DNA of 64,000 bases, taken from positions 5,857,985 to 5,921,984 of the forward strand of contig CAJINV010000003.1 in NCBI GenBank assembly GCA_905178155.1, given 5' to 3'. Positions 3,596 to 56,000 of this stretch are shown one piece after another (position 1 is the stretch's first letter; the number at the start of each line of letters is the position of its first letter). The position numbers and the translations under genes were made by a program. Source of the stretch: Amoebophrya sp. A120. Lineage: Eukaryota > Protista > Dinoflagellata. A model generated the notes under the pieces. It made no database searches. It was not told where the DNA came from and worked only from the letters and a program-made list of their open reading frames with translations.

Positions 3596-4298
3596 CCGTG
3601 TAGTCGTGTCGTCCTAGTGTGGCTTCAAGAAAATCAGATACAGATGATGAACCTCCGAGGAGGCATTCCATTGAAAGAAGCGACTCAGAAGAAATCGAGA
3701 CCTACTGCGTAGCCAGGAAATGGCAGCGTGGCGTGCGCACCTGCGGTGGTGTGGTGTCCGCCTCGTCAGGCGGCCGTGCCAGCAAGAGAGTCTACATCCG
3801 CAGCGTTCTCCAACGAGTATGAGATTTCGCTGAGCACATCATTCTATCACATTCGAAGCAGAAGCAGACGCTTTTGTCCAAGTGTGTAGTGGCAAACGGT
3901 GTCTCTTCTCGGGCGAAGAACTCACATATCCAATTCAACTTGTCCTTCGATGCAAGAAAAAAGAAAAACCTGACAGCACATGCACGCGATGATGGGTGTT
4001 CCCGCCGGGCTCTGATTCAGATTTGGACGTTTTCAGCCTGGGATAGGCTAGAGTCTCAAAATGAGAGTGAAGTGCCGAGGTGCTTGTTTCGGAAAAATGG
4101 AAAAAATGCAGTTGCAGAGTTGCGCTTTGAAAGTGGAGTTTTCGAGAGACACAGAAAAACGGACTTTTCCAAAAAATCATGACGCTGTTTCCAGTTGATT
4201 CTGTTAGTGGTGCGACCGAATTAAACTAGCTCTAGCTGCAGAAGATAGGGCACCATTTACAAAGTCGCATCTCAAGGAGGAGCCAGCAAAGCGATAAG

Positions 4299-29255: not shown

Positions 29256-32200
29256 TCAATACAAATTGAATTTTCTCGTGTTGTTATGCATGAAGTTCGC
29301 AAGAAAAAGAAAAACTACTACCTTCTGCCCAGTGTGTATCACGAGAAAAAAGTGTTACAGTTACACATTTGTTGGAGTTTCTGCATCACAAATTTTCTCT
29401 GTGTGGCAGAGAAAACTTGTAATGCGAAGATCATAATCGAAAACAGGAAGAAAACGAGGCTCCAAAGCATTTCCTGCATGAGAAAGGTTGTCTGTGATGC
29501 CAGTTTTGCAACACAAGGCGTAACTGTAACACTTTTTTCTTGCGATAGTGTGTGACTCCCGAAGTTGATGGTCCCGGCTCATCTGCAGGGACGAGCCCAC
29601 AGCTATCAAAAGGAAAAATCCCCCCTCCCCATATTGACAAGGCACGTTTTCGGAAATTTGTGTTGCTGATTTGTAGCCACAGATCGTTTCTGTGTTGCAC
29701 GACGGCAACCCCACAGGCTCCGCCGCATTCTACAGGTGGTTTGTCATGCTGTTGACCTACAGCGTAGACGTCTGTCATGCTAAGCGCCTAGGCCAAAACG
29801 TATCTACTCAGGCTTAGCATGGGCCTGGAGTCCTCGCCAGCAAGACAAATCGGATTTGTGTACGCAAATCCAGCATGAGAAACTTCGTTTTGATATGGGG
29901 AGGGGGGTGGATTTTTCATTCTGATAACAGCACCTTTGGAGCCGCGATCAGCATTGCTACCGCCCTGCTGCGGTGGACCACCCGAGCTGCCACTGCCAGT
30001 GACTGCCGCCACAAAGTTAGGGGGAAATGCAGGAGGGACAGGAAACGGTGGGGGACCCTTGCCCCCAGGAGCGGATCCGGTCATCATGCTACTTCCGCCC
30101 CTCGGAGGGGGTGCGATCATGGGCGTCCCGGCTGCAACACCGGTAGTTCCACCGCTTGCTGGCACCATCATATTACTACCGTTGCTGCCTTTATTGGTGC
30201 CACCCGAATTATTGTTGTACGGTGCCGGCGGGGGCGTCAAATGGACCGGCGGCGGCAGCAGGGGTGCGGGCCGTTGCACGTCGTTGAGCAGGTCGAGGGC
30301 GGGTAGTTCGGGAGGCGGGGTTCCTTTTTGTGGAATACCTCCGGAGCTGGTGGTCTTGCCGGCGGAGCTACGATGCGACGGCGTTGGGCCACCGCTGGGT
30401 GCGTTGTTCATGGATGTCATGTTGGATAAAGCCGCACCAGCGCTACTACTGTTGTACATTCCACTGCCCGGCTGCTGCATTTGTGCGGATGTCGAAATGC
30501 TGCTGCTATTGCTTTTCCCCGCCGACGAGGAACCAGCGCTGGATGCATTGTTGCCACCTCCCTTGGATGAAGAAAGGCCTCTAGTATTGTTGCCTCCACC
30601 GGCGGTGCTTCCCGGGCTCGGAGCTGGGGTGCCGGGTGCGCCGGGGGACGGGGCGGGGCGTGTGGGTGCTAGGTTCGGTGGTCCTTTGTTGCTGGTCATG
30701 TTGTGCTGGACATTGCTCATGCTAGTACTGTAGTTGCTGGAGGATGCATTATTGTTGGACGAGGACCCGCCAGCGCCACCCTGCTGCAGCTGTTGCTGTG
30801 CGTTGTTGCTTGATCCGCCCTTATTTGGGGTGTTGCTTTGCTGCGTGGGTGCTGGCGCAGGAGGGTAGCTGTACCCGCTGTTTGGTCGTTCCGGCGCGAG
30901 GATGGATTGCGGTCCACCGTGGGCCTGGCTGGGAGTTCCGTGAAAACTCATCTGGTTCGGATAATGGTTGTTGGGATGCACGTTGTTCCCTCCTGGTGCC
31001 GGAGCACCCATCGAAGTTGGCACGCCCGTACTTCCATGTGGTCCACTGCTACCTCCGTAGTGACCGGAGGACGGGTGATGCTGCTGATGGGGTGGTTGGG
31101 GGCCAGGACCACCCTTGCCACCATGCATGCTGCCCATACCAGGAGCACAACTACCCGCACTGGGGCCCCCCGCACCGGCGCCGGTGCCCGAGGGCCCGGA
31201 TGCCGAGCTGTTTTGATTCAGCACCGGAGGGTATGGGGGCGGTGGCATCTCGGAAATAGACTTCCCGCCTGCTTTACCACCGCACTGCTGCGGCGCTGCG
31301 AGATGTTGACTATTGGGTCCCCCGGGATGCTGGTGCTGCAGGTGCTGTGGATGTTGGTCTAGCGCACCCGTTCCGGCTCCAGGTGGACCGGTCCCCGGGT
31401 GCAGTTGCAGGCCCGGATTGTATGCTCCCTGCTGGTGGTTCAGATTGTGGCTCGAGGGTTGGTACGAGCATCCCGGGGACGGGGTTAGGCCCTTGCTCGC
31501 GGGCTGCGAAGAGGACGCGCCGGCTGGAGCAGGATTGAACATGTCGTAGGGTCCGCTCGATTTGCTATTCGTGTGGCTCGCTGGAGACGGACCGCTCTTC
31601 ATACTGTGCTGAGGAGGGCCGTTGTCCATGTTGCTACCCATTCCTGGCGCCATGCTGCCAAGCGCGCCACCTTTTCCATCCGATCGCTGCAGGTCCAAGC
31701 CGGGAGGTTGCGAACACGAATTGAACCTGGTTTGCGAGAGAAAGTCACGATAAAGCACGAAATCGAAGCATTCTAAGCAGTGTGGCGCACACACGGAGCT
31801 ACCTGCAGGCACGAGCACAGTTCCTGCGAAGAGTGCTGTGCGCGCAGAAGGATGCTGCCAGCGGGCTTAGTGAAAAGCAAAAGAGTAGATTGATATACGT
31901 AGCTAAAGACATACGTCTTTTCTTACCCTCCCATCGACTTGCCCATCATCCCTTTTCCATCTGCGATCATTGGGCCCTTCCCCGCGCCTGTCTTAGACAT
32001 GTCGGTATTGCTGCTGTCTGCAGTTCCGGATCTGGAAAGACATAATTTGGCGGGAAAACTTTTCACATGAAGATGGTGAAAAAAGCACTTCTCAGTTCTC
32101 GTGTGGCTTAGGTAGGATAATCGAAGAAAACAATAAAACCGCAAGAACAGGGTAACAAGGAACTTAGACGTGACCGGGGGGGTCACGTCCGTCCGTCCGG

Positions 32201-35200
32201 CCGGACGGACGGCACGTGACCGGGGGCAGTCCGGCCTCGGGGCGAGTTCGGCGCTCCTGAATGCCGCAGCAACTGTGGCCCTCGGTAGCTAGAAGTCCCC
32301 GGCCGCGTCACCGACGGCGGACCAGCGGCAAGAGCCGCGCCTTTTTCCGTTTTTCCGTGAAAGACCGAACTCATGACCTTTTTTTTTTAGTTGGGCGCCC
32401 GAGCTAGGTAGCTGACACCCCCCGGCCGCGTGACCGGGGGCGGAGCGTGACGAAGAAGGCAGTTCTTCAGTGAAGTGCCGAGCTCATGACCTTTTTTTTT
32501 TTTTTTTAGTTGCCCGGCCGCGCGGTCCACCGCAGCCACCTCCACCTCCTCCACCACGACCGACCCCCGGTCACGTCACGTGCCGTCCGTCCGGCCGGCC
32601 GGACGGACGTGACCCCCCCGGTCACGTCTAGGTTCCTTGTTACCTTGTTCCAATAGTCAATGAAAACCGAGACTCCACGTGGTCATGTGGCAAGATGTCA
32701 ACATCTAAATTGTGATCGTATTCGTACCCGCCTCCGCCTGCCGATAATGCGTATTGCTGGTTGTTCGCTGAGCCCGACATGGGCATATTGTGATGCTGGA
32801 ACATGGATGAGTTCGAGTTGTCAACACCTACACCACCCGAGTTATTGGGCGGTAGCGACGAGGACTGGTGCTGCTGCGCCTGCCCATCCCGTGCGGTAGG
32901 GACGACGGAGTGCGCTGACTGCGATTTCTTTTTTTTCGCTTTAGAGGGGACCGGGCTCGCGCGGTACAGCTCCACGGCAGAAATGGAGCAGCAGTTGTGG
33001 TCCTCGGTGTAGAACGGCGTCTGGCTGTAGTCGTTTGGCCCTAACACAAACCAGCAGTCGTGTCGGGGGACCTGGAAGGTGCGCAGGTAGTGGCCATGGT
33101 ACGGCAGCGTGGGCTCGCCGTCGGCCGCCCGCTCAATCTGGTCCTTTTCGTCCTGCAACACAAACAGCATGCTGTGGTCCTTGTTCTTCAAAATGCCCAT
33201 CAACCGCTTCAGATATTCCTTCTGTTTCACAGATCCACCATCGTCTTCCACGAACTAGTGTATTTTCAGTTGGTCAGTATTTCTGTTTCATGAGCAGGGT
33301 CGTGGTTCTGATGCACACGCAGTTCTATCCTTGCTATTGTTGGATCGTGACCTACTCTCTCATATCGACACACCGGAATAACACGATATCACAAAACAGA
33401 GACTTCTTCTGAGAGCAACAAAAAGTATCACGGTGGACGAGACAACACTGTAGATGAAGAGCTCCAGCATAGAAAATGGCAGTACCGCCTGCACGCCAAG
33501 GACGGAAGAGAAGGTAAAGAGCGCGAAGATGTCGGGCCTGTCTTCCAGTGTGTTCTCGGCGTCTTGCAGCGTTCGATGGATAATCAGATGGACCTCGCTA
33601 CCGCTGTTCAACAAAGCTTTTTGCAGCTCCAGGATTTTGTCGGTGTCGTTGCAACGCTCCGAGCTGAGGACTACTGCGCTCAACATCTGCACACTCTTAC
33701 GCCGTGCAGCCGCAGCGGTGAGCATCTGTTTTCAATTTGATTTTTGATCATGAACCCGGCAGCAGGACGGAAAGCCAATGTGAATATCATAGATATCCAT
33801 GTGGGTCTCGCCGGTACCAGACAAAAGAGAAGAAAGAAAAAAATCGTCGGTTGTTCTTGTCGTGCAGTTCTTTATTTCTTAGCAGTACGTCGCACACATA
33901 CTAACTTATAAAATTCTATACCAATTGTTTGATTTTGGCAACGATCTCAGACATGCGGTAAACATCATCGTGCTGTTCTGCATCCATGTCTGGGCCCCCG
34001 CTCCTTTTACTCCATACGGAAGATCCACCACCTGGGTTGTTATTCGTGTAGCCTTTGGTGCCGTTGGCCGCCAGGCCGCTGTTTTCCTGACTGCCTTGGG
34101 GTCCTTTCGCTCCGCCTCCGCCTTTGGAGCCGTTCATAGATGTTGCAGGGGCGCCACCTCCGACAGAGTGGTGAAACGGCGGCTGCTGCGAACCACCTTG
34201 AGCAGGACCGCCCTTGCTCTGATGGTGCTGGTCCGGCAGCATGCCCGGAGGAGGATTCATATTGGCGCTTTGCTGTTGGTGCCCGCCTCCGCCGACAGGA
34301 CCACCGGGATCGCCGCCCGTGGGACCTTTGCCACCTCCTCCGGGGCCGGGGGCAGGTGCCTGACCCGACATTGCGGCGCTCCTACCGCTATGCACTGCAA
34401 AAGTATCGCACTAGTACATATCGCATGACAAATTTCCCCCAGCATCATCATCATCATTGAGACGAACCCCCTGTGGTCGTCCTCACGGTGTCGTCTTGGC
34501 CCGAGGCTGTTTCGGACAGATGTTGGCTGTGCCCGGCAAGAGGACGGCTCTGCGTGGGCAAATGTTGGCAATGTCCAGCAAGGACGCTTCCGTGGCCCCA
34601 TTTTCTGCCGGTTTTTTGCTTTCGCCAGGATTACCCGCAACACCACCCGCGGACAGTGAAACCCATGGCAGGCTTTCGCCAGGCGGTCCCGGGGAGGGAG
34701 GCCCTCCTCTTGGCACAATGTCGGTTAGATACCAATTTGCTCTCCCCGGAAGCGAGGCGAGCCTCTCCTATGTTGGTGCAAAGCACGAGTGGGGTCGTCG
34801 GCTCGGGCGAGTAGTTGGGGGGGCTACTCGGGGGGCACCGGGACTGTTCGACGAACTACTGCCGGATATGAAAAGTTTCTGGGTCTAAAATGAAATTTGT
34901 AATGCGGATTTAACTTTTGTGATGCATAAATGCGATTAGTACGAGTACGATAGTACTTTTGCAGTGCATAACCGCGCGGATCGAAGCCTCCCGGTGGCGG
35001 TGGATGCGTGCCGTAGGGCGGCTGCGGGTCTGGGTCGAAAGTAGGATTAGTGGTGTTGCAGCTACCTCCTGAATTTGCCAAAGGTGGTGGTCCACCACCT
35101 CCGTGCTGCATTGGACCACCTCCACTTGTTCCTCCGTAGTGCGGCGGTAATGGTAATCCTCCTCCGCCGCTCGAGTTGCTGTGCATGAAAGTACCGTGCT

Positions 35201-38200: not shown

Positions 38201-39435
38201 GGCCGGCGGCCCTAAGGTGGCGAACATGGAACGACTCACGGGGCACGCAAGGCAATGCCGCAAGGAGTCAAGGCGCGGGAACACGACGGGGGCAAAGAGC
38301 GCACAACATAAGGACCTAGGAGGGGCGGAGGCAAAACAGTGGCTCGCAAGGGCGGAGAGGGGGGAAAGCGCACGAGGCGAAGAACAGAATCGGCCGTCGC
38401 GCCGGCTGGCCTCGACGACCCTAAACCCCGAACCCTAAACCCAGACCCAAACAACCAAGGCCGCAGCCGGCTCTGCTTCTGCATCACCTCCGGCCGTTGC
38501 GGTGGTGATGCGCCCGCATCACGAGGTGATGCGGGGGAGGTGGGTAGGTGATCCGGGTGGGGGGGTGATGCGTGGGGAGGTGATTCAAAGGGGTGGGGAG
38601 GTGATTCACACTCCTACCCAAAAAAAGGGAGCTGCACTGAGTCAAAAATCTCCTGTACGCGCCTTGTAAATACATGCTTGCATGTTTGGGCGGGATGGTC
38701 TTGAGCTAATAGCAATGAACAAAGGTGGACGAGCCACTACAGAAGTTTCTATCTTGTTGCTCCATCTCTACTACGTCCATGACGAGCGGCACTACATCAA
38801 AAAAAAAGCGTCTACATTACAACTTGTACCTGGTATCCTTGTGTGTGCGGAAGATGTAGACCGTTTTCGGAGTGGCAATCACCAGCGCCGCGACGAGGTT
38901 GATTTTTTTCTTTCCCTGGCCCGGATGCTCCAGGTTCCACTTGAGGCCGAGCCCCACGTGGAGCTCCTCGCGGAGCCGCTTCTCGATGGATGTAAGCTTG
39001 TCGCATTGCCCCTCTTCAACCGTGTGAACCTCGACCGCGTAGGCCGGGTTACGCTCGTACGGGTTACTGAAAAGATGGGCTTGCTGCTCCTCGCGTGCAC
39101 TGCAAATATGTCTCGGTCTGGAATAAAAGGTGGACTTGTAATATTGCTCGTCTCGCATTCCTGTAAATAAATGCACGACCAACAATATGAAAAGCGCGAC
39201 CTTTTGCATTATGCATGAAAACTTCAGTTTCAACAGTTTGTGATGCTCGCTACGCATGAAAGAGCACCCAAAATAGTTCCTGTGCTTAGCTGCATTAAGA
39301 AAGCTGTTCAATTATGACCGTGCAGCATCACAAGTTTCCAGACCCAGACATATTTGCAATGCATACCTCGAGTGCCACCCAGTCCGGAATGTCCTCCTGT
39401 TTCACATTTGTCGCCTTGTAGCCGCCGACGTTCAT
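29256..39435 (-). CDS. ~2,000-aa protein: N-terminal degenerate DEDDy 3'-5' exonuclease domain, two large G/P/M/N/Q prion-like regions and a central globular domain; at least 12 exons, 3' end unresolved
   Basis: Frame is continuous from ATG 39435 after removing introner 39090-39366, GT-AG introns 37794-38829, 37325-37571 and 36954-37176, introner 34389-34970, GT-AG introns 33726-33921, 33255-33485, 32032-32667 and 31727-31926, and introners 29604-29926 and 29337-29547. Exonuclease-like motifs are VGLGLKW, LPDYVVQCIRDKKVAK and SDWELDLLTGAQIRKAADDA. Confidence 0.75.
29337..29547. mobile_element. Introner I1 (211 bp)
   Basis: TIR TATC(AC/GC)RAGAAAAAAGTGTTACAGTTAC, 26/28 match. TSD GTGTG (29332-36/29548-52). 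Lies near the 3' end of the giant gene, where the downstream frame is short, so its intron role is less certain than its TE structure. Confidence 0.85.
29604..29926. mobile_element. Introner I2 (323 bp), family C
   Basis: TIR TATCAAAAGGAAAAATCCCCCCTCCCCATAT (imperfect). TSD ACAGC (29599-603/29927-31). Removal joins SKGAV|GSSLQMSR in frame. Confidence 0.9.
32145..32650. mobile_element. MITE (506 bp) within intron 32032-32667
   Basis: ~80-bp TIR GAACARGGTAACAAGGAAC.TAGACGTGACCG..., 3-bp TSD CAA, and internal duplicated CTCATGACC(T)nAGTTG blocks. Confidence 0.9.
34389..34970. mobile_element. Introner I3 (582 bp)
   Basis: TIR TATGCACTGCAAAAGTA plus an imperfect extension. TSD ACCGC (34384-88/34971-75). 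Removal joins FDPRG|RSAAMSG in frame. Confidence 0.92.
37853..38619. mobile_element. MITE (767 bp) with CACCTCCCCA subterminal repeats, within intron 37794-38829
   Basis: IR GTGTGAATCACCTCCCCAC (37866-84) / GTGGGGAGGTGATTCACAC (38593-611). GGGT...ACCC ends are flanked by A7 on both sides. Confidence 0.85.
39094..39365. mobile_element. Introner I4 (272 bp), family A; can be spliced as a GT-AG intron 39090-39366
   Basis: TIR TATGCATTGCAAATATGTCTGGGTCTGGAA, with the left end mutated to CGTGCACTG.... TSD CCTCG (39089-93/39366-70). Joins DWVALE|EQQAHL. Confidence 0.9.
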
Positions 39436-40928
39436 CGTTCCCAAGGGGAGGCTGACGGCCACGTCCCTTTAATATTTCGTGCCTTATTTGCAACGAAAAT
39501 CGACACCGTCTGTGTATCCGGTTGGCACAGGCAGTCCTTTCGCGAGGGAGTCGTCGCGCACGGCGAAAGTAAATAATCTAGAAAGATTTATCAGGAGTCG
39601 GATGGACCGTGTGAGGCATTCACTACCGCGGTGCGTGATCCGGGTTGTCAACGCAATACTGCTTCTGTGCCCGCCCAGGAAGGCGTAGGTGTGACCCCGG
39701 TAGGGGGCGAGGAGAGCCCTTCGAGACCTATACCAAAGAAGGCTGGTTGCGCTTCATTTTTGGGTGGCAACGAGTAGCGTTGCCGGGTGCGGCGTCACGC
39801 ACCCAAAAATGCAACCCAACGAGCAACCAGCAACCAAGAATTGCAATTGCTCAATTGTTTTTGATGCAAATAACGAACTTTGGCCGATAAAAATACTTTC
39901 TCTAGAGTTGGAAGCAAACTCTTTCTGCGTGGTAACATAAAAGGTATTTAGGAATAGGAACGGGGATAGATCAAGGCCAGAATTCTCTACTGTGTGACGA
40001 GACGCAACACGAATTAACTTGTTCGATCAGATGGAAAATTTAGTGATGAAAATTACTTCCTCAAAACTCAAATCAGATTTACAGATTTGGATGACCACCA
40101 GACACTGCTGGACTTACTTTCTACCTTAAGCTTTACACACGAACCAACCAATCAAAAAAAGCGAGCAAAACCAATGACCTGTTCGATCTCTTCTATCGAC
40201 GAACTTTTACTTACAAAGTTTGCTCGCAGCCGCGGCCAGATTGAATGCAGAGTAAGTAGCTCTATCACGATCCAAGCCCTGGGTGGAAAAATAAAGGAAA
40301 AAAAAATACTGTGACATAGTGGAAACAACTCGTGCGCCAAGAGGATACACACTAACGAGAACGTATGCGTTCCATTTTGACCGGCCTTGGAAAACAGGCC
40401 GGTAAATTAGGTCTAATCTTTTCTAGATCCCGACTTACATGATAGCTCTGACGTGTAATATAACATCTGGAATAACGGATCTTCACGCTGCAGAGAACTG
40501 ACCTGCTATCTGTGTGTGTCACGATAGCGATACTTTTTATATCATTGCGGATCCATCCTCGTTAAAGAAACAATCAGCCACAAGCACAAGCTGCAGCTTT
40601 GCGAATGTAAAATTTGAATCTCAACGTCCGGTCTTGCAAAGCAGATGTAACCAGTTTTTATGTGTCAGTTTCTTCTCGTTATCCGACGGTTTCCACATTG
40701 CTTGTTTTTTTCGGCTTCAAAGAATATCGTCGGCTTTTATTCTCCACGGAAGCATCGACTTGGTACGAATACAATTCCTGTCAACGTTCATTGTGAATGA
40801 ATCCCTGTCCCAATCTTGCCGGAAATAAACAGAGAAGTAGTCATTTAATCTAATGTCGTTGTTGTATTTTCTTTATCGATTGTTCGAGCTCAAGATAAAA
40901 AAAGAGCGTGAACTTCATTGTCCTCGAA

Positions 40929-42007
40929 GCTTGTCGAGGCGCAACTACATTGTCCTCGAAAAAGGAGCACAATCCGGATGAAAAAGGTGAACATCGGAGC
41001 CGGGAGGAGCCTATGCGACCCCTAGGGGGGCGGGCGTACTTAAACGCTCCGGCAATCTCTATTCCTTGTTCCTGACGGCCACATCAAGGCGATTCTCGCT
41101 GCTAGCGCCGTGTTGCTCGATTTTGCCGCGAAGTACCGGCACACATCGGTCACAAGCTACTAACCTGTAGGTGATGCGGTCGGGGGGCATCCTGCGCTTC
41201 CGCGGATGCTTTGCGCCCTCCTCGTCTGCCCAGCTTCTTTGACAGAAGAGGAGGGGCGCTGCAATGCTCTCCCGTCTGGGCTTGCATTCCTCACAAAGGC
41301 CGGCGCGATGCGGAAGACAGATAGAAGACAAGCTACTAATGATAACGGGGCCCCCGGCTAAGCCGGTGCCACCGCGCACAGCACTCCAGCCACGCGGGCG
41401 AAGAACTGGGGCAGCTCCTGGCTTCCTCTTGCTGGTTCTCGGCAGTCGCGGCCCTGCATGCCGAAAGCGCCTGCGCTTGGCGTGCGTCCCTTTTGTTGCA
41501 GTGGCCGCGTGCTCTGACGCGCCACCTGCGCCTCAGGGTTGCGCCGTTGCGCCTGGTGCTTGCGAGCGCTGAGGGGCGCGCGCGGTAGCTAGCTAGCTGC
41601 TGGCCAACCTAACTGCATTGAGACCCGCACCCAGAAGCCGGGGCCGGGTGCGTTTAGCTTCCCTGCGGGAGGCAGGTTGCGTATCGCTCACTGTCTTCCG
41701 CTACGTGGTCGTCTATGCGAAGAGACGTTTGCACGAGCTGCGAGCTCGTGCTAGGCGCCCCTCCCTACAAGGCGAGGCTTTTTGTTCTAAACGACTAGCA
41801 TCCGATAGCTTCGTCCCTTCCCTACAAGGGCGGGCTGTTCGTTAGCAAGACGGACAGACTTTCCGTGTCCGAAGTCTGTGCTATGATGTAGTTCGCAGCC
41901 GAACAATTGACTACCTGCTGGCAGCCCCCCTTCCCTGCAAGGGCGGGGGCACGAGGCTTGTCGAGGCGCAACTACATTGTCCTCGAAAAAGGAGCACAAT
42001 CCGGATG
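40929..42007. repeat. Perfect 52-bp direct repeats (40929-40980, 41956-42007) flanking a GC-rich ~975-bp segment
   Basis: GCTTGTCGAGGCGCAACTACATTGTCCTCGAAAAAGGAGCACAATCCGGATG is present twice. The interior has three CC(C/T)TCCCT(A/G)CAAGG motifs. Confidence 0.85.
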
Positions 42008-42217
42008 GTGTGCAACTGCTTTGTCGAGCAGATGCAGAAGCCTTGTCATTATTTTTATGTTTGTCCAACTATTTTCTTTTTGACCCAGCAGTAAGAATCA
42101 CCGGCGAAGTCTCGATGTCATTTAATGATGTTGAGTTCCTCTTTCTGCAGGACCTTGTGTCTGGTTAACTTTAACCGCCGCCCCGTGCTCTTTATCAGCT
42201 CAGCACTTGTCGTGTTT

Positions 42218-44624
42218 TTAAGAATATTCCGTAGTATTTGAGCCGCCTGGGCTTGGACTTCTGAAGTTCCGCGACTTCCGGGGACTCGTGAGCGAGTACA
42301 CGGCCGGCGCCACCGCGGTAGAGCGGCGCTCCCGATGGGTCAGCATTTCGCCAACTTGATCGAAGTTTCCGTAGTCCGGATGAGCTTTCACCTGTAGGTA
42401 CTTTGTTGTCCCGGCGAACTGGGGGGGAACACGGAGTTGTGCTACCCCAGGCGACTTCTCCTGCCCCTGGTATTGATGTGAAGACGAGTTGTTGGTACCA
42501 GGCACAGGCGCGTCGAGGAGCCGTTTGTTGGGTGGTGCGGGTCGTGCGGTGGCCAGAACTCCGAAGTGACTGCTACCACTTTTTTTCCTCCGCCGACGCC
42601 CATGATGTTGAGCAGGGTGGTCGTGGCCAGAGCCAGCGACCGCACTGGACACCTCAGATTGTTCGGAGGTTCTACTCGATCGTTCTCTTCGGTTGTACTT
42701 CTGGGATGATGTTCTTGCGTGGCCACAGTCTTTGTCTTGCTCCTTCTCGCTCGCACTCGCGTTTTTCGACGCATACGAAATTCGACTGGACTATGGCGTT
42801 CTCAACTGTTACATTCTCAACTGTTACATGGATTTGTCATGCAAAATGACCATGAGCCACCAGACAATGAAGCTGCTTCGCATGACAAATTCTCGGAGGG
42901 GTAAACAGCATCTAAATCCGTGCCAAATTTGTGATGCAAGACTTGCAAGCTTGCCCCTTTTCCTATTGCTGTTTTAGCATGACAAATTCATGTAACAGTT
43001 GAGAATGTAACAGTTGAGAGCGCCATATGGACCGCGACAACTTGCGGCCACCACGATCCAGGAAATTACGCGCCGTGGTCGAGTATCAAATGTAAAAATG
43101 TCTGGGTCTGGAAGAGTCATGCAGTTTCTGCATGACACAGAAGGTCTGGCATGGCAGCTCTAGCATCACAGGTTTTGAGAAGCTTCCGCAATGCCGAACC
43201 CGCATGACAAATCCCCCATTTTGGTGACAGAAAGTGGGCAGCTTTTGCTACCTATGCATGAGAGATTTTTGTGTGTTCTGAAATGCGCATCACAAATTAC
43301 ATCCTTCCAGACCCAGACATATTTGCATTTGATAGCGAGTTCCTTCGAGGAGTCAATGGGACAAAAACTTGTTCATCTCCATTGTCATTTGCGTTCCTCC
43401 GCACCTCCGGGCGAGGAAGTTGTACATTCTGATTCGTCCTCTCGCCCCTTTGGAGGTGCTCCTGCTGCGTCGAGGAGACCGAGCTTCTTCGTGCCTCTTT
43501 CATCTTTGCCTTCATCAAAGAACTACTACTCTTGCGCCGATGCAGCCGATCCGCTTCGTCTCGCATTCTTCGCGCTTCCTCCGCCTCCGCTTGCTGGATT
43601 TTCTGCAGCTTCTTCTGCCGCCGCCGTTGCACAAGACCCGTCAGAAACAGGGACCCGATGATCAACCCCGACATACATCCGAAGGGGATAAAGAAGTTTT
43701 TCATGCTATCCTATGTAAAAACGTCGTTACCCTTTTTACCCGATTGTCATGCTAAACAAATTAGAATATAGAATTACTAATGCTAATGCAGCTGCACACT
43801 TTGCCCCTTGGCAGTGCATGAACCAAGTCGATTTGTGATGCGGCTGCACCAGCCAAGCACGGCTACACTACCGACTCAAGGTTCTCATGGGCAACAGAAA
43901 AAGGTCAGTTTATTTACTTATTTACACAGGATACATGCCAACTTCCCAGTCTTGCGTAGCCTTCAGAGTGTATACCTCGTGCTTCCACAAGTTTCGCCAC
44001 ATCTGGTAGGGCCTATGAGAGTGCACAACTCTTCCACCTCATTCGAGACGCATAACCAGCAAGAGAGACAGTGCCACAAAGCGAGTAGCCTCGGAAACAC
44101 AAATTCAAATTTGGACACAGATGATCCTATATATTCGTAGTACTGTGTAAACGGGGGTCGGTTCCCGAAACTTGTCATGCGAAGACCTGTGCTGTACAGT
44201 GTGCTTTTGCAGAGTAAACGAGCAGGGGGACGAGGGGGGTTGTCGTTCGTTGTGCAATCGGATAGGGTAGCGGAGAGAGTTTGTCTCGTTCTGACCGGAG
44301 CCACTTCGTGTCCAGGAAAAAACTGTCCTTGATAGCCGAGGTAACGGGGTCCATAAACAGGAGCCGGAGCTGGCGCACGCCGTGGTCGTCGGGTTCGGTA
44401 CTTTCAAGGGTTTCGAAAACACGTTGCTCCTCGGAGTCGCCCTCCACCGCCGGCGCCAGGCCCGACAGTGTGTTCACGGGTGCTCCTGGAACTGCCGGAA
44501 GATGCATCTGCGACGCATTCATCTTTCCTTTTGTTTTCGGCGGGAAAGTAGAACGAGTGGAGGTGAAAGCCAGCACTGCGCGCGTGAACAGAGCTTGGAT
44601 CAGAATTGCTCCACTGTAAACCAT
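42218..44624 (-). CDS. Hypothetical single-pass membrane protein interrupted by at least three introners; 5' exons uncertain
   Basis: Removing I7, I6 and I5 gives one frame: ...YQMWRNLWKHEVYTLKATQDWEVGMKNFFIPFG(TM)...RRNSTTARNF...LSRSSRISY...NTTEYS*. A signal-like N-terminus starts at 44624. Joins between 44030 and 44270 are not resolved. Confidence 0.65.
42792..43027. mobile_element. Introner I5 (236 bp)
   Basis: ~51-bp TIR TATGGCG.TCTCAACTGTTACATTCTCAACTGTTACATG.ATTTGTCATGC with 2 mismatches. TSD TGGAC (42787-91/43028-32). Confidence 0.93.
43084..43334. mobile_element. Introner I6 (251 bp), family A
   Basis: 31-bp TIR TATCAAATGYAAAWATGTCTGGGTCTGGAAG, 29/31 match. TSD TCGAG/GCGAG. In-frame removal. 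Confidence 0.92.
43707..43933. mobile_element. Introner I7 (227 bp)
   Basis: TIR TATCCTRTGTAAA, 12/13 match. TSD CATGC (43702-06/43934-38). In-frame removal. Confidence 0.88.
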
Positions 44625-44939
44625 CGTCTTACCGCGGCTCGCTTTTTGCTTGTGCACCCTGTCTGCCTTTAGTGTCACTCGCACGAAAAATCCCGGCGGC
44701 CCAGTTGGTCGACCTCAAGATTAGTGTATTTCATCTTTCAGTAGTGTTGATCTACTGCTTCGATGGCACGAAAATCGTGTTTTTGGAGTTCAGCAATAAA
44801 TCAATTCAATGGTAGGAGCCTGCTGCATGATATTAAGGATCGTGATCTTCATCGAAAAGGAAGATCATCATGGGCGGTAAACTTGCTTAGCGCTGTGTAA
44901 TTCACAAGTACTATTCCGATCATATTGACGCATTTTCTT

Positions 44940-47611
44940 TTACGCTTTATGGCCTTTTGAAGATTCTGTACCAGGACCGAGCCCGCTGGGGTACGCGGTT
45001 GTCGCCGGGGTCATCGTGCGGTTTCCCGACGACAATGCATGATCGGCCGCCACGGGCGTAGTCGCTCTGCTTGATGGCCGTGCGCGGGAAGCAGCAGGCG
45101 AGGTCGGATGCTGGTAGGAATGGCTTATCAATTGCTGCGCACGCAACTGCTGCAGCAGTCCCGGGTGGCGAAAACGTGCGTCGGTGGCCCGCTGCACGCA
45201 CAGGTGCAACGGTTCGTTGAGGAAGCAGCGCGTGCCCGAAGTGGAAACGGGACGGACCCCCACCGGCCCGTGCTTCGGCCTCGTCACGCTGAACACGTGC
45301 ACCTCGGCGATCTTCAACCGAGACCCTTCGCGCTATCAAAGTTAATAAAAAGGCCCTGCTTGTTTTTAGCGACCTCCCTGACTAAAGCTAAGTAGCAAGA
45401 AACAACTCGTCCACCCGACGGTGCAAATCCATGGGAAGATACTTACGAGCGAAGCGCTGTGTTGCAAATGACGAGAGGCGCAGGAGTGAAGAAGGCAGCA
45501 CAAGAACTTGTCACGTACACAGACAAACGACAGAAGTTGTAGCTGTCCCACCTAGATTCTAAAACTAGACCAACGGTATTAACGCGGCAGTGGTCCCTTT
45601 GTTGAATACAACATGTCCTCTGTATTGTTTGGATGTTGAAGCTTTCATCCAGTATGTTCTTGAGCTACCTTGCTGGTCGATTCTGATGACTGGGGCGGGG
45701 CACTTTTCCATCTTGGTATGTACATCAATATGTCCTGGTCCTCCTCCTCGTCGTCCTCCTGGTCTGGAGCTCCTCGTTTCACATCTTGATCGTCCTTCGC
45801 CGCCGGTGGTGCGCGCAGTAGTGCGTGTTTCACCTGGTCGGCCACACCCGGCTTTGCGCGCATTGGCGAAAAGTCGACACGCTGCCGAGGTTGAAAGGGC
45901 AGCCGCCGCTGCTCGCGCGCGTTCGATTCGCCGCGACCGTCTTGTTCGTAGGCTGTTCGGAAAGGCCGGTCTTGGAGTCGCATCATACCGGTGTGCACGT
46001 GCTTCTGCTGGCGGTGGAGCACATAGTGCTGCAAAAAGGGGCCGACGGCTTGCGTTACGATCGCCGATTCCATAAACTCGCGCACAGTCCCGAGTTTGAC
46101 GGTTTCATCGTGCTCATTCAAGAGGGTCTCTTGCTTGCCTGCCTTTGGGGTAGAAGTTGTTGTGCTTCTTCTACTAGCTCTTTTCCGAGATGAAGCTCTT
46201 GCAGCGCCACCACCACTACCCTCTGACGGAGCGGAATTCGCTGACGCAGCAGTGGGTTGCACTAGCGCCGACCCATCTCCGAGCTGATCGGGAGGAGAAG
46301 GTTGTAGTTCTTCTGCTCCAGGTGCCCCTCGCACAGCTTCCTCCCCTACAACTTCTCGCGGCTCTGTGGGGAGCGTTCCTGCTTCTGCCTCGTCGAGCGG
46401 GTGGAACTCTCCGTCGTGCGTGCCCGAGTAGAGAGGGAAAGTATTGCCCTGAAGATCGACGTAATGAAAGTGCCACGCAGACGGGTTTTCTCGGGTCACC
46501 TCCGGTGGGTTCGACGCCAGTTCCTCCCGGTCGATACTGGTGTCGGACCGGACGTCGTCGTCCCTCTCAAGGATCTTCTCCTCTTCCGGTTTCAGCTGCG
46601 CCCCGGAGCTCTTCCGGATGAGGAGTCCCCGTTTTATGCGGGCCTTGTGTTCGCGAGCCGACTGCCGTTCCGAACGGAGGACCTGTTCCTCCGGGCTCGG
46701 GGGCGCATAGAAATCGGTCCAGTCTGTACCCGGCTCGATGCTGTGGCCCAGCAGCCACGGCGGGTGGTCCCCGTCAGTCGTCAGTGGAGAACCGCTGCTT
46801 GTAGTTTTCTGCACGGAAGAACGGAACACCGGGTAATGAATATCCACGTCCGGAAATTTATACGTCTCCAGTGTCCGGCTCATCAGCCGCCCATTTTGCA
46901 CAGCAACCGTCCCGATCTTGCGGGTTAACCCGAGTGTCCAACAGAAAAAGTGGTGCGGTATGGTATGAGGCTATAGGATGTAAAATGTATATCAACAACA
47001 CTGGACGAAGATTGGCTTTCAAAAAGATGCCATTCATCTCGAGCCCGAATACATGAGAAGTTTGGTGTTTTGCAGGAGATGATGCAGCAGATGTTAGCAT
47101 GTACCTACATGCACACAATATTGATCCACCGAGCTACACAATTTTGCTGCGGGATACCGAGGTATGCAAGCCCGTATACATGCCGACTCACCACCGGCGC
47201 GTGGTTCGTCGGCAACTTCACTTTCCCCGTCACTGGGTCGACAGGAAGAACTGTTTTGTAACTCGTCGTGCCGGTTCGCTTCAGTAAGCCCTCGATGCTG
47301 CGGGGTTGTTGTTCGAGTTCGGCCCCTGGTATAATAATTGCCGTGGCGTTCGTTCCGCCGCGTGCTGAAGAGGAAGAGCCCTGCTCTCGTGAAGGAGCAA
47401 TCGCACGTTCTGCGCCAGACCTGCCCCCACGTGATCTTCGACTTCCGGTGGAGGGTCGGCCTCTGCCCCGGTTCACTGCGGGACTCGAGGCCCCACCTGC
47501 AAACCAAATCGACGAGGAAGATGAACTGAGGCAGAATACGGGTGGGAGAAAACCCAAAAAGCCCGAACCATGCACCGAGAAAAGAAACAAAAAACGGAGT
47601 ACCATCCTCAT
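44940..47611 (-). CDS. Hypothetical protein with signal-peptide-like N-terminus; exons ~47611-47117, 46916-45719, 45328-44940
   Basis: Three - strand ORFs can be joined by a GT-AG intron 46917-47116 and the degenerate introner I8. No domain recognised. Confidence 0.55.
45334..45718. mobile_element. Degenerate introner candidate I8 (385 bp)
   Basis: Ends TATCAAAGTTAATAAAAAGGCC and (rc) TACCAAGATGGAAAAGTGCC. Flanks CGCGC/TGTAC differ only by transitions. Removing 390 nt joins two ORFs in frame. Confidence 0.45.
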
Positions 47612-49050
47612 TTTGAAACACTTTTGCGAACCTCGTTTATTTTTCGTTAGTTGTAGTTCTAGCCGAAACCTATGACATTATTCGCTTCTCTTTTATTCTT
47701 CCATGCCACAGACGATGTGGAACAAGGTCCATGTAACGCATACAAACTTGTAGCAATCGTATGGCAATTGTAATGATCTTGTTGATCATCAACATCAAGA
47801 TCACGTCCACCTCCACGGTGTCCTTGTCCTGGATCCGGGGGCATTAGCTTATGTAATGTGCTGCAGTTCGGGTTTGTCTAAATGCCTCATGATCTTCAGT
47901 CATTGAGATCGCGCTCGCAAGCAAAAACCACAGCCACACTGCAAAAACAAGAAAAGGGTGATCAAAGAGGAAACTGCCGTGGAGGATGTCGACCCACGGA
48001 GGGGAAAATGGCAAAATCAGTGACCCTGTACACACTCACACACAAGTTTGCTGTTTTCTGGATCATTGATGTGTTCAGAAGTAGCAGTGAGTACACAGCT
48101 AGTGTGTAAGTGGCACGACAGGAAGCACCAGACCGGACTGATCGAACCTGTACCAACAAAGAGAAAAAACTAGTATGAAGGTGAACACAACACCTATGTT
48201 AGGAAACAGCGCACTCATTGTCATTTCAGCTCCCAAAAGGACACCGAAATATAAACATTTCTGATGTGAGGAAGTGATATTTATGTGAATTTGATTCATC
48301 AAAGCTCGGGCAAATCCTAGCTTTGATTCCTGCAAGCTTTATTTGCTGAATCAAATTTCGTCAACAAAATTTTGCAACTAGATGCACACCAATCGGCATC
48401 AAACAGATCTACATTGACATTCTGTTTACAAAAAACAGACCCTGCACACGATGACAAAAAAGTTGCCGAACCGACGAAGCGCTACATTGGATTTGACTAG
48501 GAAGCACAGCCGCAGCTGGGTCGGTGTATTTATCACACTAAATCCATCGGTAAAACTGGTAAAAGAAAAAGCTTGTTTGAAAATTGTAAAGCCATTGACT
48601 CAAAAATATTCACGAAAAATCCCGCGCCCTCGGTCTGACGAGGGCGAACACGTTACACTCATATGAATAACTCTCTACGCAAAATGCATGTGTGGTGGGA
48701 GGAATGAGGATAGATACCTGAGAAATACCAACTGCCACTTGCACTTTTGGGTATGGCAGACTGCACATGAGAATCACAGATACTCCTGTTTTGGTTTTTT
48801 TTTGAAAATATTGAAAAGTCAAAAAAATGAGCTCTTGCTTACGTTGCAGATCCAGATATGGATATACATATTCTTTGTCTTTGAGTATAATAGTATAGTC
48901 CTGGTTTACTGAAAATTATAGGAATAGATTCATTCAAAAAGGGGAACTAATTCATCTTGGTTTGATGTCTTCGACGACATTGCTTTCGTTTTCATGTTGG
49001 CCATGCACAATTTATTTCTACTTCACACTTTTTCACGTTTTCGTTGTCGG

Positions 49051-51999: not shown

Positions 52000-53082
52000 C
52001 GTGGTCCCTGTTACTCTCTTCAGACTGTAGCTGACCAGAGGGTCGCCACGCGTTCCGTGGTCTGGTACCGACATGATTGGAAGGGGAAATAACCTCCTCC
52101 GACTCTAGATGAAAAATAGGTTATCTATACTTCTCGAGTTTTACCTCGTCCAGGAGGCCGAGAATGGTTCAAATTTTCTACACAAAGGAAAAAAAAACTG
52201 CACAAGAATGCCTGTTGTGTTATTTGTCACTACAACAATTTTGTTGAGCACAACAAAGGAGAAAAACGATTGCTGTGCCAAAAGAGGGGTAGAAATCGTA
52301 TGTGTGAACTACTTTAGTGGCTCAAATGGAAGCACAATGAAGCTCAAGAAGATAAAACGGCTCAATAACTGAATCCGTTGATGTTTGTACTGCAACACAC
52401 AAATATGCACACGTATGACAGTTGTAGCAGGTTCTTACAGGAGAAACAAGGGGTACTGCGGATTTCAGAAATGATGTGAATTGCGTCAGTCGCAAAGGAA
52501 AAGAAAGGGGTCCACCGCAAAAAAACGAACCTAGTTTGAAAAAGCGAAAATGGAAAATTACCGAGTGCGCGACTCTACTCTCACGAATTTCATTTATTTT
52601 GCCTACCTGAATTTGGCTTTTCCGAATTTATTTGTGGAACGAAAGGCTTGATTTTTCGAATTAACGACGCACGTCGATTCGTTGTGTACGTACCGATGAT
52701 TATTGTTGCATTCGTACGAGCGCTACGCAGTGCCGATGCAGTCGTTTGCCTGTCCCGTCCGCAAGTCTAGTACACGATATGTAATATTGCAGAAAGCTGC
52801 GCAAACGTGTACCGAATCTTGGAAAGTTAAGTCGAAACAGAACACTGGAACAGTACATGCGCGCTTGTTTTTTTTTCAATTCTACAAATTCTCAAAGCGC
52901 TGTGCACGCAAAGTGAGGAGGCGGGGCAGCGCTCGCTGCAGCTACTGGCCCCGGTAGGAACATGGCGCATGTGATTGTGCACGGTTTTGTGGCTGGTTTA
53001 TTTGTAAGTATGTGTACGTTCTTCCCGAAAGCACAATTTTCGGGTGGACAGAAAAGTGCAAGTGAGGCAAAGGGTCGCTACT

Positions 53083-56000
53083 CTAGCCTCCTTCGAGTTC
53101 CGCATTTATCTGAGCAAGGGTAGCCGGCTGCGCAGGTTGCAGAAACGGCTCGCTACAGTGTTCACGGTGTTCCGCAACGTGAGTAACCATATTCGACAGC
53201 CATTGTCTGACCTGCAGTTGAATCACGGTCAGCTGAAGCAACTCGCTCCCCATGCTATTTAGATCGCGGAGAAGGCGGTTCCCCCATGGGTGCGCAGGTG
53301 TATAGTAGGTCGCAGCGGTGGGCGAAGAAGATGCGTTGCTTTCGCCTCTATCTGGACTCTGTAGCGGAGTTGCACTTGCGGCTAGCTGATCTACGAAGTG
53401 CGGATTCTGTGCCACTTCGAGTAGCGATTGCCGGAACCGTGTTTGCATCGTGTCGAAAGCCCTGGCGAAGATTCTCTTCATGTTTTCGCCAGATATCACT
53501 TTCAGCAGTACTCGGTACATGCTACTTACATCCTTGACGAGCGCTGCACACACATCGTGTGGCGCAGGCGGTAGTGCCGTTTCAGCATTTGCAGTGGTAG
53601 AAGAAGCTCCACCGCCTGCGATATTAGTAGCAACTGTGTCATCTGACTGCTGCTCTACCTCTGTTACAACTGTTGCAGAACTCCCGCGCGCTCTACTGGT
53701 ACCGACCTTTACAGCTCCGCGATCCGAATCCTCGGCTTGTGTGGAGGTAGTGTCTGGATCGTCGCCTTCTACTGTTGGGTCACCCCGAGCAGGTGCCGTA
53801 CCTTCGTCTACTTCTTGGTTCCCGTCTGCTGCTTTTTCCTTTATTTCTACTGCGGCTGCGCCCTCGGTGGCGAGAGCTTCGCTTCTACCGCTTTGCTCGG
53901 CCGCAAGAGCAGTTTCCACCTGTGCCGTCAGGGGACTACTTGATGTCGCCGCCGCGAGAAGTAGCTGCGGTGGCAAGGCCGGGTGTGGTGTGGAGAACAG
54001 CGCCTTGGCGTGCACGTCGTATCGCATTTCCAGGATCTCCGACAGTTTTCCCAGAAGCTTTTGGTGGTGGTCTTCGAAGTCGCCAACCGTTTTTCCGAAA
54101 TCAGCCAGCAGCGCCATTCGTGTCCGGTTTACAATCGACGCTGCAGCGGAGGTTGTTATACTAGCAGGCTGCTGCAGTGCGGGTGCTCCGGCGGTGGGCG
54201 TCACCACAGACGAGGATGACGAACTACTTGAGGGCCTCTCGAGAATCAGGCACTTTTGCAGCTGCTCTTGAAGTTTCGGAACCAATGCCATGTACATCCC
54301 GCACGTCTGGCTGCATAATGCAATGTTGGTCGCGGTCACTTTCTTTAATACCTGATTTTGATATAGAAAAGATAAAGATTTAAAAAAAAGATTTGCACGA
54401 TGAAACGAAACTAGGAATAGTGCAGATTTGCAGGCCTGCAAGTTGACACTTTGCCAGTAGTAGAAAACGAAATTTATATATATACCTTGTTGGTTTTTGC
54501 TTCTCCGAACAACACAAGCTGCTGCATTTGCCGATTGAAAAGTTTGAAGAGATGGGTGAGCCGCTGCACTGCTTCGACGGCAACGCTTTGCAGCGCGCGG
54601 CAGAGCTGCAGGTATTCCTGTGCGATTTTAAGCATCATCAGCGCACTGGGAACCACCAGGAAGTGGCTCTTCTCCACTTTCAAAAACTTCTCAGAGTGCT
54701 GGCTCTCTTGCTCCAGATGCTGTTGTCGTGCGGGTACGGACGGTGTTTGCTGATCGGCGGAAGAAGCAGCGCCGTTACCAGCACCCTGAGTGGCTGAAGC
54801 AGGATTGATGTTCGCGGTATCAGCAATACCAAGTATGCGCTTTTCGGCCTCAGATACCTCCGGTGTTGTTGTCACGGTTTCACCGCCCTCGTGAAAGGAC
54901 TGCAACATTTGTTGAACCTCGGCGGCATCCGGCATCATGGCGGGCGGTGCGGCAGGTTTGTGCGGTGCATCTTCTGGTCGTACGGGGGCAACACTACTCG
55001 GCGCTGTTGAAACAGTACTCGCTGCTCGGGGCGAAAACTCTACTTCCTCGGTTTCGCCGGCCAAAAACCGAACGTAGGCCCGGTGCTCCTTGGTTGCGTC
55101 GCAGCGTTCCCACCGCTCTTATCAAAAGTAAAAGTGTCTGGGTCTGGAAACTTGTGATGCTGGGTGGCGTCTCATGATGAGGCTACAAATGCTGGCTCAG
55201 CATGACAAGTTTCTGAGCTCCTAGGTGTTGCCTATTCTGCATGACAGACTGCGCTTCTGCATCACAGAAAAACGGAGCTCTTGGGTAACGTGCATGACAG
55301 ATTTAAGAATCATGCCAGACAAGCATGACAGACATGAATTCTTCCAGACCCAGACATTTTTACAGTTGATAGCTCTTCAGCTAAAACCATCTGCACGTGC
55401 GCGACCTTGCGGTGGTGAAACTCTTCCACGTATCGAAAGGAAAAATCCCCCCTCCCCATATCAAAACGGAGTTTCTGTGTACACGAATCAGGTTTGTATT
55501 GCGGAGAGGCATTGCGGCCAGATCCCCGGGCTAGGTAGGGGCGTATGGGTCTAGTTGTTCAGCACGGCAAACGGCTCCCCTTTAGGCCCAACAGCATGAC
55601 AAATCGCCTCCATAATGGGGCGGAAGCTTCTGCCCTTGTCTTCTTGCAAAACAAATGTGATTTGTGACCTCAAATCAGCAACACAAATTTTCGGAAACAT
55701 AGCTTTTCGATATGGGGAGGGGGGATTTTTCCTTTTGATACCACGATTGCCTTCGATTGGGTGTACAGAATCGCACGAAGGCTCGCTGCGACGTCCACTA
55801 TTTTCTTGCTCACGACTGCTGCACTTACACTTACAGCCGCTTGAGGAGGTACTATCGTGATGTCCTCGACAGGTGCATTTTTTGAGCTGGTTCCCCTCTT
55901 ACTGTCTACCGCTTCGGAGCTCGAAGACACTGATGATGAAGCACTGCTGCTGCTGCCGTCAACTTTCATTTCTTGTGCCAAAACAGTTGCTTGTTGCGCA

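What the first reader, a model, noticed from the sequence alone, without database searches (positions are those of the whole stretch)
29337..55740. Intron-generating transposon system: TAT...ATA elements with 5-bp TSDs removed precisely from exons without GT-AG
Seen: nine clear elements (29337, 29604, 34389, 39094, 42792, 43084, 43707, 55120, 55431) and one decayed one (45334). They share TAT/ATA termini, 13-51-bp TIRs of several different sequences and a 5-bp TSD, and all lie within coding exons of - strand genes. Deleting an element plus one TSD restores the frame; in VPS54 it restores the conserved QxxxxVxxFHxxK and ERW motifs. For I1, I2, I3, I6 and I9 no in-frame GT-AG pair exists at the junction. 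Known: IR/DR-bounded non-canonical introners were reported in Amoebophrya. Inference: TA termini with a 5-bp TSD do not match the DNA transposon superfamilies I know (Transib has a 5-bp TSD but CAC ends). This suggests an uncharacterised mobiliser and a structure-guided excision route, at RNA or DNA level.
Basis: partly seen in the sequence, partly recalled or inferred. Interest (0 to 1): 0.88.

Follow-up and report, generated by a model that had tools for sequence, protein, structure and literature searches.

The report
Known Amoebophrya transposon-born introns
These are the already published transposon-derived introns of the parasitic dinoflagellate Amoebophrya A120: they stay in the DNA, six are cleanly missing from a contig that is likely RNA, and they are likely cut out by an altered spliceosome that does not need the usual GT-AG signals.

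Summary
Real, but already described. One exon here is 100% identical to a protein named Amoebophrya sp. A120. Farhat 2021 describes A120 introners with TAT-starting inverted repeats and 3-5-nt direct repeats. Gozashti 2025 lists a family with '5-bp TSD, TA/TA Termini' and LTR-element-like ORFs.

All ten elements exist, and I found two more (44014, 46935). Removing six of them, each with one 5-bp repeat, plus one canonical intron gives exactly the 3,873-nt span of a likely RNA contig and the deposited protein. A DNA-type contig keeps four of them, so removal is at the RNA level.

Three details were not found in the texts I read:
- One element with unequal repeats puts the cut 1-2 nt before TAT.
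- A motif, TGT(C/G)ATGC, is shared across families (116 of 125 elements).
- Terminal bases are weakly conserved in a polar way (p 0.05-0.14 in the looser searches).

These favour a relaxed spliceosome over a symmetric hairpin cutter, and an integrase-type transposase as mover. Neither is shown, and no transposase was found.

The parts
29337..29547 (-). I1, 211-nt TAT..ATA element, exact 5-bp repeat
   Evidence: frame kept on removal; junction not seen in RNA; 7 copies among 241 elements of related loci, best 93%
29604..29926 (-). I2, 323-nt element, same family as I9 in opposite orientation (72% alike)
   Evidence: junction not seen in RNA; an in-frame GT..AG alternative exists
34389..34970 (-). 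I3, 582-nt element, no Pfam match in three internal ORFs
   Evidence: junction not seen in RNA; an in-frame GT..AG alternative exists
39094..39365 (-). I4, 272-nt element; 3' terminus decayed; reads GT..AG when cut 1 nt before TAT
   Evidence: junction not seen in RNA
42792..43027 (-). I5, 236-nt element, 55-nt inverted repeat
   Evidence: removal fits the contig length and protein P0002
43084..43334 (-). I6, 251-nt element with unequal repeats; deposited protein excludes a cut exactly at TAT
   Evidence: registers -1 to -6 fit P0002
43707..43933 (-). I7, 227-nt element; a same-length GT..AG alternative would change two residues and does not fit P0002
44014..44264 (-).
   Evidence: (piece starts 44263, no other letters)
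45334..45718 (-). I10, 385-nt decayed element; only registers -1 or -2 fit; ends not predicted to pair
   Evidence: (piece starts 45720)
46935..47156 (-).
   Evidence: (record 1: 46929 joined to 47157)
55120..55371 (-). I8, 252-nt element in VPS54
   Evidence: junction not seen in RNA
55431..55740 (-). I9, 310-nt element in VPS54
   Evidence: junction not seen in RNA
41956..47688 (-). Host gene of I5, I6, I7, N1, I10, N2 and one canonical intron (44714-44971); product identical to P0002, 1177 aa, function unknown
53083..56221 (-). 3' part of VPS54, host of I8 and I9, with a canonical intron at 54352-54485

Best explanation
These are Amoebophrya A120 introners: non-coding inverted-repeat elements that sit in exons between 5-bp direct repeats and are removed from the transcript with one repeat's worth of sequence, likely inserted by an integrase-type cut-and-paste transposase and likely spliced by a relaxed spliceosome that needs no GT-AG. 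Shown: the anatomy, the fixed 5-bp repeat with no target preference, retention in DNA, and precise removal in one gene. Inferred, mobility: a DDE transposase of the integrase/IS3EU/Ginger group, supplied from elsewhere in the genome, binds the ends and the inner TGT(C/G)ATGC sites. Inferred, removal: the cut falls 1 nt before TAT, so the intron starts N-U-A-U and keeps the U at +2 of a normal donor. It ends 4 nt into the downstream repeat, which puts the first A of the terminal ATA 7 nt before the 3' cut, a possible branch point. Pairing of the inverted repeats would bring the ends together, perhaps in place of U1, which was not detected in A120. Identity 0.97; RNA-level removal 0.95; cut at -1 0.7; spliceosome 0.6; integrase-type mover 0.6.
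For: Identity. RNA removal: spliced length 3,873 equals the span of X1 record 1, and the ORF is identical to P0002; X5 record 10 keeps four elements. Repeat length: 107 of 182 TAT..ATA pairs in related loci have an exact 5-mer, 0 at length 4 or 6; flanking bases are unbiased; removed lengths mod 3 are 44/31/50. GT..AG is possible in 11 of 190 oriented elements. Register: I10 allows -1/-2, N1 +2 to -3 on the contig, I6 -1 to -6 on the protein; I4 is GT..AG at -1. Polarity: 5' T1 unchanged in 190 of 190 while its pairing partner changed 5 times; 3' first A unchanged in 190 of 190 while its partner changed 3 times. I10 is removed without predicted end pairing. U+2 pairs with U6 in the yeast spliceosome (10.1101/212811). 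A120 has U2, U4, U5, U6 and most spliceosomal proteins but no detected U1; an Amoebophrya with U1 has mainly GT-AG introns. Motif: 355 hits in 31,486 nt of elements, 1 in 9,893 nt of flanks; first site from each end points the same way 142 times against 18.
Against: The RNA evidence is one contig of one run whose kind is a guess, only one junction (N2) is listed as directly adjacent pieces, and P0002 may rest on the same data. The tight register rests on one old element. The polarity is post hoc, rests on 12-20 elements oriented by a codon model trained on this window, and weakens in looser searches: Fisher p 0.048-0.136 in four settings and 0.10-0.33 in a stricter search. Those looser sets contain exceptions at both 'invariant' bases. 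In a fresh element the proposed branch A is paired in a stable stem. Loss of the G+1/AG contacts is hard to square with the yeast structure. Published junction calls for one large family are split between NT donors (892 of 1322) and AN acceptors (864 of 1322), so they do not fix a register. No transposase was found, and Farhat found none in A120.
Confidence: 0.6

Rival explanations
1. A spliceosome-independent route, as proposed for euglenid nonconventional introns: the inverted repeats form a stem, and a nuclease and ligase cut at a fixed offset from it.
For: Ends are predicted to pair in 11 of 12 window elements, z -4.4 to -14.5 in nine of them (12 shuffles each). No sequence requirement at donor +1 or at the acceptor. 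U1 not detected. Euglenid precedent with circular products (PMC11282704).
Against: I10 is removed without predicted end pairing, and N1 and N2 fold no better than shuffles. Terminal changes lean one way along the transcript. A fixed asymmetric cut is also possible for a nuclease, so the register does not exclude this.
Confidence: 0.27
2. The elements are removed by an ordinary spliceosome using nearby GT-AG or GC/GA-AG sites.
For: I4 is GT..AG at -1; in-frame pairs lie within 12 nt of I2, I3, I5, I7, I8, I9. I2 and I3 were checked neither in RNA nor against an orthologue.
Against: N2's observed skip has no GT..AG reading; six removals sum to the exact contig length; I1 and I6 have no GT..AG pair; the A25 alignment is best and gap-free with element+5 at I8 and I9; 11 of 190 elements allow GT..AG.
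Confidence: 0.05
3. The elements are excised from DNA, like ciliate internal eliminated sequences.
For: TA-bounded ends and precise removal resemble such sequences (recalled).
Against: X5 record 10 runs 43310-51588 without gaps through I7, N1, I10 and N2, while X1 lacks them together with canonical introns. Contigs can drop rare forms, so stage-specific excision is not formally excluded.
Confidence: 0.02
4. On mobility only: the mover is not an integrase-type DNA transposase but another enzyme, such as a retroelement integrase acting in trans or an unrelated DDE family.
For: No autonomous copy found here; Farhat found no transposase in A120; IS3EU's usual 6-bp duplication is not met; family 3 rows carry Copia domains.
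Against: Inverted repeats, a fixed 5-bp duplication and symmetric inner sites are the layout of a DNA transposon; family 38 joins this signature to ORFs like Copia/Gypsy elements.
Confidence: 0.3

Closest known systems
Amoebophrya A120 introner elements (Farhat 2021, PMC7789003)
   Same: Same organism by protein identity; inverted repeat starting TAT, seven freer bases, then a run of A; direct repeats up to 5 nt; mean length near 240 nt; non-canonical borders; hairpin; repeated families.
   Different: Nothing in kind. The sections read call the border position variable or unknown and name no shared inner motif or polarity; their figures were not seen.
A120 family 38 (Gozashti 2025, PMC12130899)
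   Same: TA/TA termini, 5-bp duplication, inverted repeats, intron-forming; labelled 'Ginger' in the supplement.
   Different: About 808 nt with ORFs like Copia/Gypsy elements; the elements here are 211-582 nt without a recognisable ORF. The main text says it lacks Ginger homology, termini and duplications.
IS3EU/GingerRoot DNA transposons (PMC10045372)
   Same: TA..TA termini; integrase-related DDE transposase group.
   Different: Usually a 6-bp duplication; here strictly 5. No transposase seen here.
Euglenid nonconventional introns (PMC11282704)
   Same: Ends brought together by inverted repeats, repeats at the junctions, no GT-AG, probable MITE origin.
   Different: Other end motifs (CAG/CTG near the ends); known circular products; unrelated lineage.
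Fritillaria non-GT/AG introns (PMC13326754, PMC11282704)
   Same: Transposon-linked non-canonical introns handled by a U2-type spliceosome.
   Different: U1 is conserved there and specific splice-site pairs dominate; here neither end dinucleotide is fixed except the proposed U at +2.

Membership tests
Amoebophrya A120 introner elements | Host is Amoebophrya A120 | tested here: met
   Exon 45726-46928 100% identical to P0002, named Amoebophrya sp. A120; whole spliced ORF identical
Amoebophrya A120 introner elements | Inverted repeat starts TAT, seven freer bases, then at least three A | tested here: met
   Definition; A at positions 11-14 is 0.86-0.94 in related elements; window ends
Amoebophrya A120 introner elements | Direct repeat of 3-5 nt at the borders | tested here: met
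   Exact 5-mer in 9 of 12 window elements, unequal in 3
Amoebophrya A120 introner elements | Removed from RNA at non-canonical borders | tested here: met
   6 of 12 elements, one gene, one contig; the other 6 not seen in RNA
Amoebophrya A120 introner elements | Repeated in families | tested here: met
   6 of 12 have copies over 70% of their length among 241 elements of related loci; I2 and I9 72% alike
IS3EU/GingerRoot | TA..TA termini | tested here: met
IS3EU/GingerRoot | 6-bp target duplication | tested here: not met
   0 of 182 exact at 6, 107 of 182 at 5
IS3EU/GingerRoot | Integrase-related DDE transposase in an autonomous copy | tested here: inconclusive
   None in the window or 533 kb of partly overlapping loci; whole genome not held
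Ginger2/TDD | 4-5-bp target duplication | tested here: met
Ginger2/TDD | TGT..ACA termini (recalled) | tested here: not met
   Ends are TAT..ATA; TGT appears only as rare decay
Transib | CAC..GTG termini with 5-bp duplication (recalled) | tested here: not met
   5-bp met, termini not
Canonical U2 intron | GT..AG borders | tested here: not met
   1 of 12 window elements (I4) and 11 of 190 related elements allow it
Canonical U2 intron | Removal through a 2'-5' lariat by the spliceosome | not testable with these tools
   Needs lariat sequencing or spliceosome inhibition
Euglenid nonconventional introns | Stem joining the two ends | tested here: met
   Predicted in 11 of 12
Euglenid nonconventional introns | CAG at +4 to +6 and CTG at -8 to -6 | tested here: not met
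   Definition; end profile
Euglenid nonconventional introns | Released as full-length circular RNA | not testable with these tools
   No raw reads covering these genes
DNA-eliminated sequences (ciliate IES type) | Absent from working DNA | tested here: not met
   X5 record 10 keeps I7, N1, I10, N2

The most novel reading that the evidence does not exclude
A120 has a U1-free spliceosome that has dropped the G+1 and AG rules. It reads only the U at +2 and a branch A supplied by the transposon's own ends, lets the inverted-repeat stem stand in for U1, and counts 7 nt to the 3' cut. Any insertion of this transposon in either orientation would then be a ready-made intron. One unknown protein binding TGT(C/G)ATGC sites would mobilise all families.
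Probability: 0.3. Interest if true: 0.82.

Novelty: already known. Interest (0 to 1): 0.36.

Why it matters
The system itself is published, so the finding is a rediscovery. How A120 removes tens of thousands of introns without GT-AG is still open in the papers read. Elements with unequal repeats fix the cut position, decayed ends show which bases matter, and the shared inner motif gives a handle for finding the transposase. All three can be scaled to the whole genome with existing reads and would separate an altered spliceosome from a new splicing route.

Tried and rejected
No whole genome was held and the records behind the loci could not be extended, so no genome-wide search for an autonomous copy was possible. 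The run search listed no holder on record as RNA. The raw RNA runs X8 and X9 gave 97 and 3 reads, nearly all confined to short repeat stretches, and say nothing about these genes. The joints table was filled by other copies in X5, so junctions were read from the pieces table. An I2-type end had 0 matches in viral contigs. No homologue was scored for the low-complexity exon beside I3. Long candidates: L023:505-1608 (1,104 nt) and L064:3862-4492 gave no Pfam match; L040:5001-8031 looks like a chance pairing of two elements' ends. A motif search for integrase or reverse transcriptase gave 2 hits: one a DNA ligase/DRMBL gene, one with no match. A 3n length rule was rejected. Published dinucleotide tables were rejected as proof of register: all nine common A120 pairs have T at +2, but the even split is what alignment ambiguity would give. 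Depth in X5 was not used as a copy number. Earlier scan notes held nothing.
Full report
Observation. All ten elements are at the stated starts. Seven are perfect: TAT..ATA, inverted repeat, exact 5-bp direct repeat. A strict scan finds 7 in the window and 0 in 200 block shuffles. I4 has lost one terminus, I6 has unequal repeats, and I10 (45334-45718) has a TAC end and repeats alike at 2 of 5 positions. Two more elements were missed: N1 (44014-44264) and N2 (46935-47156). All lie in minus-strand genes. The scans found no convincing one in bases 1-29,000, where the recognisable genes up to about 23 kb are on the plus strand.

Organism. The exon at 45726-46928 is 100% identical to P0002, named Amoebophrya sp. 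A120. The best hit of the VPS54 exon is an A25 protein at 55%. Each search scored only about 7,990 candidates and returned one hit.

Removal from RNA. Run X1 is only guessed to be RNA, but it lacks a canonical intron in VPS54. Its record 1 maps from 47688 to 41956 over record positions 1-3873. Removing I5, I6, I7, N1, I10 and N2, each with 5 extra bases, plus the canonical intron 44714-44971, gives 3,873 nt and an ORF identical to P0002. The two unlisted stretches of the record, 491 and 360 nt, are matched exactly. The N2 skip is listed directly as adjacent pieces: 227 nt, 222 + 5, with no GT..AG reading. X5 record 10 runs 8,279 nt without gaps through I7, N1, I10 and N2, so the DNA keeps them. 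For I8 and I9 the A25 protein aligns without gaps across both junctions and scores best with element + 5 among nine length pairs (463 bits against 451-458). I1-I4, I8 and I9 were not seen in RNA. The evidence is one contig, and P0002 may derive from the same data.

GT-AG. Only I4 has a GT..AG cut that gives the precise product. In-frame pairs with another product lie within 12 nt of I2, I3, I5, I7, I8 and I9; I1 and I6 have none. For I7 the same-length GT..AG option does not give P0002. I2 and I3 remain unchecked.

Larger sample. With no repeat length assumed, 107 of 182 nearest TAT..ATA pairs have an exact 5-mer, 0 at 4 or 6; 51 had three or more mismatches and are probably inner or chance pairs. 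Flanking bases are unbiased and removed lengths are spread over the three frames. GT..AG is possible in 11 of 190 oriented elements. The sample leans to one family: 97 of 241 resemble I6.

Shared inner motif. TGT(C/G)ATGC or its complement occurs 26 times in 3,301 nt of 11 window elements (10 of 11 carry it) and 3 times in 60,699 nt outside. In the loci it is in 116 of 125 elements, with 355 hits in 31,486 nt against 1 in 9,893 nt of flanks. Peaks lie near 42, 80 and 125 nt from the ends, and the first site points the same way from either end 142 times against 18. Two-ended symmetry across unlike families suggests a DNA-binding site of one mover. This is inference; a splicing role is not excluded.

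Cut position. Equal repeats hide the cut; unequal ones show it. I10 allows only 1 or 2 nt before the first T, on both the contig and the protein. N1 allows +2 to -3 on the contig and I6 -1 to -6 on the protein. At -1, I4 reads GT..AG and every intron starts N-T-A, so the element's T stands where U+2 of a donor stands. In yeast that U pairs with U6, while G+1 and the branch A dock the AG (10.1101/212811, passages).

Polarity. Among 190 of 241 elements oriented by a codon model, 5' T1 never changed while its partner changed 5 times, and the 3' first A never changed while its partner changed 3 times. I4 and I10 fit the pattern, and N2 changed the middle base. Looser searches gave Fisher p 0.048-0.136 with exceptions; one clear exception, L003:2873, can be cut at GT..AG. 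A stricter search gave p 0.10-0.33. The orientation agreed with A-T skew in 93 of 109 cases. This is a hint, not a result.

Structure. Ends are predicted to pair in 11 of 12 elements. I10 is removed without such pairing, and N1 and N2 fold no better than shuffles. A stem probably helps but a strong one is not needed.

Mover. No transposase or integrase was found in the window, in long candidates or by motif in the loci. TA..TA ends are known from IS3EU/GingerRoot, with 6-bp duplications (PMC10045372, passages), so the elements are not filed there. An integrase-type enzyme remains the best guess through family 38.

What is in print. Farhat 2021 (PMC7789003; abstract, sections 10, 11, 12, 16, passages, supplement legends and rows of Tables S4 and S7; figures not seen) describes 29,850 repeated introns in A120 in 1,954 families, TAT-starting inverted repeats, 3-5-nt direct repeats with a 5-bp example, hairpins, no detected U1 and no transposase. 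Its remark that the commonest repeat has four bases upstream of the 5' end may partly anticipate the register. Gozashti 2025 (PMC12130899; passages, 56 of 58 A120 rows of supplement file 8; files 13 and 14 not searched) lists family 38 as 'Ginger', '5-bp TSD, TA/TA Termini'. Also read as passages: PMC11282704, PMC13326754 (no mention of Amoebophrya) and 10.1101/2024.09.05.611473. Roy 2023 and Henriet 2019 were seen only as citations. I did not find the fixed register, the inner motif or the polarity in these texts or in the listings; unseen figures S19-S25 could hold them. The termini of Ginger2 and Transib and the likeness to ciliate eliminated sequences are recalled.

Verdict. Already known system, correctly observed, with removal at the RNA level supported in one gene. 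The best mechanism is insertion by an integrase-type transposase and removal by a relaxed spliceosome at a cut 1 nt before TAT (0.6), against a stem-guided nuclease and ligase (0.27). Interest 0.36, mostly for the tests that unequal repeats and decayed ends make possible.

Noticed in passing
window 32145-32650: A different GC-rich inverted-repeat element (76-nt arms, 96% complementary, 3-bp flanking repeat CAA), without TAT ends, apparently inside an intron of the gene holding I1-I3.
   Followed up: partly
window 37853-38620: Another inverted-repeat element with arms rich in CCTCCCCAC repeats, possibly GGG..CCC ends in A runs; 85% alike over 723 nt to L073:3334-4044. A second MITE-like family, apparently inside an intron.
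   Followed up: partly
window 40929-42008: A direct repeat of about 53 nt flanks about 1 kb that has diverged copies in run X5; the X1 transcript contig ends at 41956, at the second copy. Possibly a small terminal-repeat element.
   Followed up: no
window 1-29000: No convincing TAT..ATA element in the first 29 kb, against 12 in the next 27 kb. Plus-strand genes there: AFG1-like ATPase, PAP2 C-terminal, DPP-IV/S9 peptidase, TMEM65; long ORFs switch to the minus strand near 23-25 kb.
   Followed up: partly
window 45329-45333 and 45719-45723: The three differences between I10's repeats are all transitions at CG dinucleotides of one copy, as methylation-driven decay would give.
   Followed up: no
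L023:505-1608: 1,104-nt TAT..ATA element with long inverted repeats, an exact 5-bp repeat and internal ORFs up to 238 aa without Pfam match; possibly a deleted form of an autonomous copy.
   Followed up: partly
window 49054-52104: Single-exon 1,017-codon ORF with a plastocyanin-like domain and a Pro-rich repeat, free of elements.
   Followed up: no
window 44714-44738: The canonical intron here has CTAAT with its second A 8 nt before the 3' cut, close to the 7 nt proposed for the elements; the other canonical intron checked has no such clear site.
   Followed up: partly
window 43084-43115, run X8: Raw RNA reads carry this element end in another sequence context (73 and 89 loose ends), so that run holds a retained copy from another locus or strain.
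   Followed up: no
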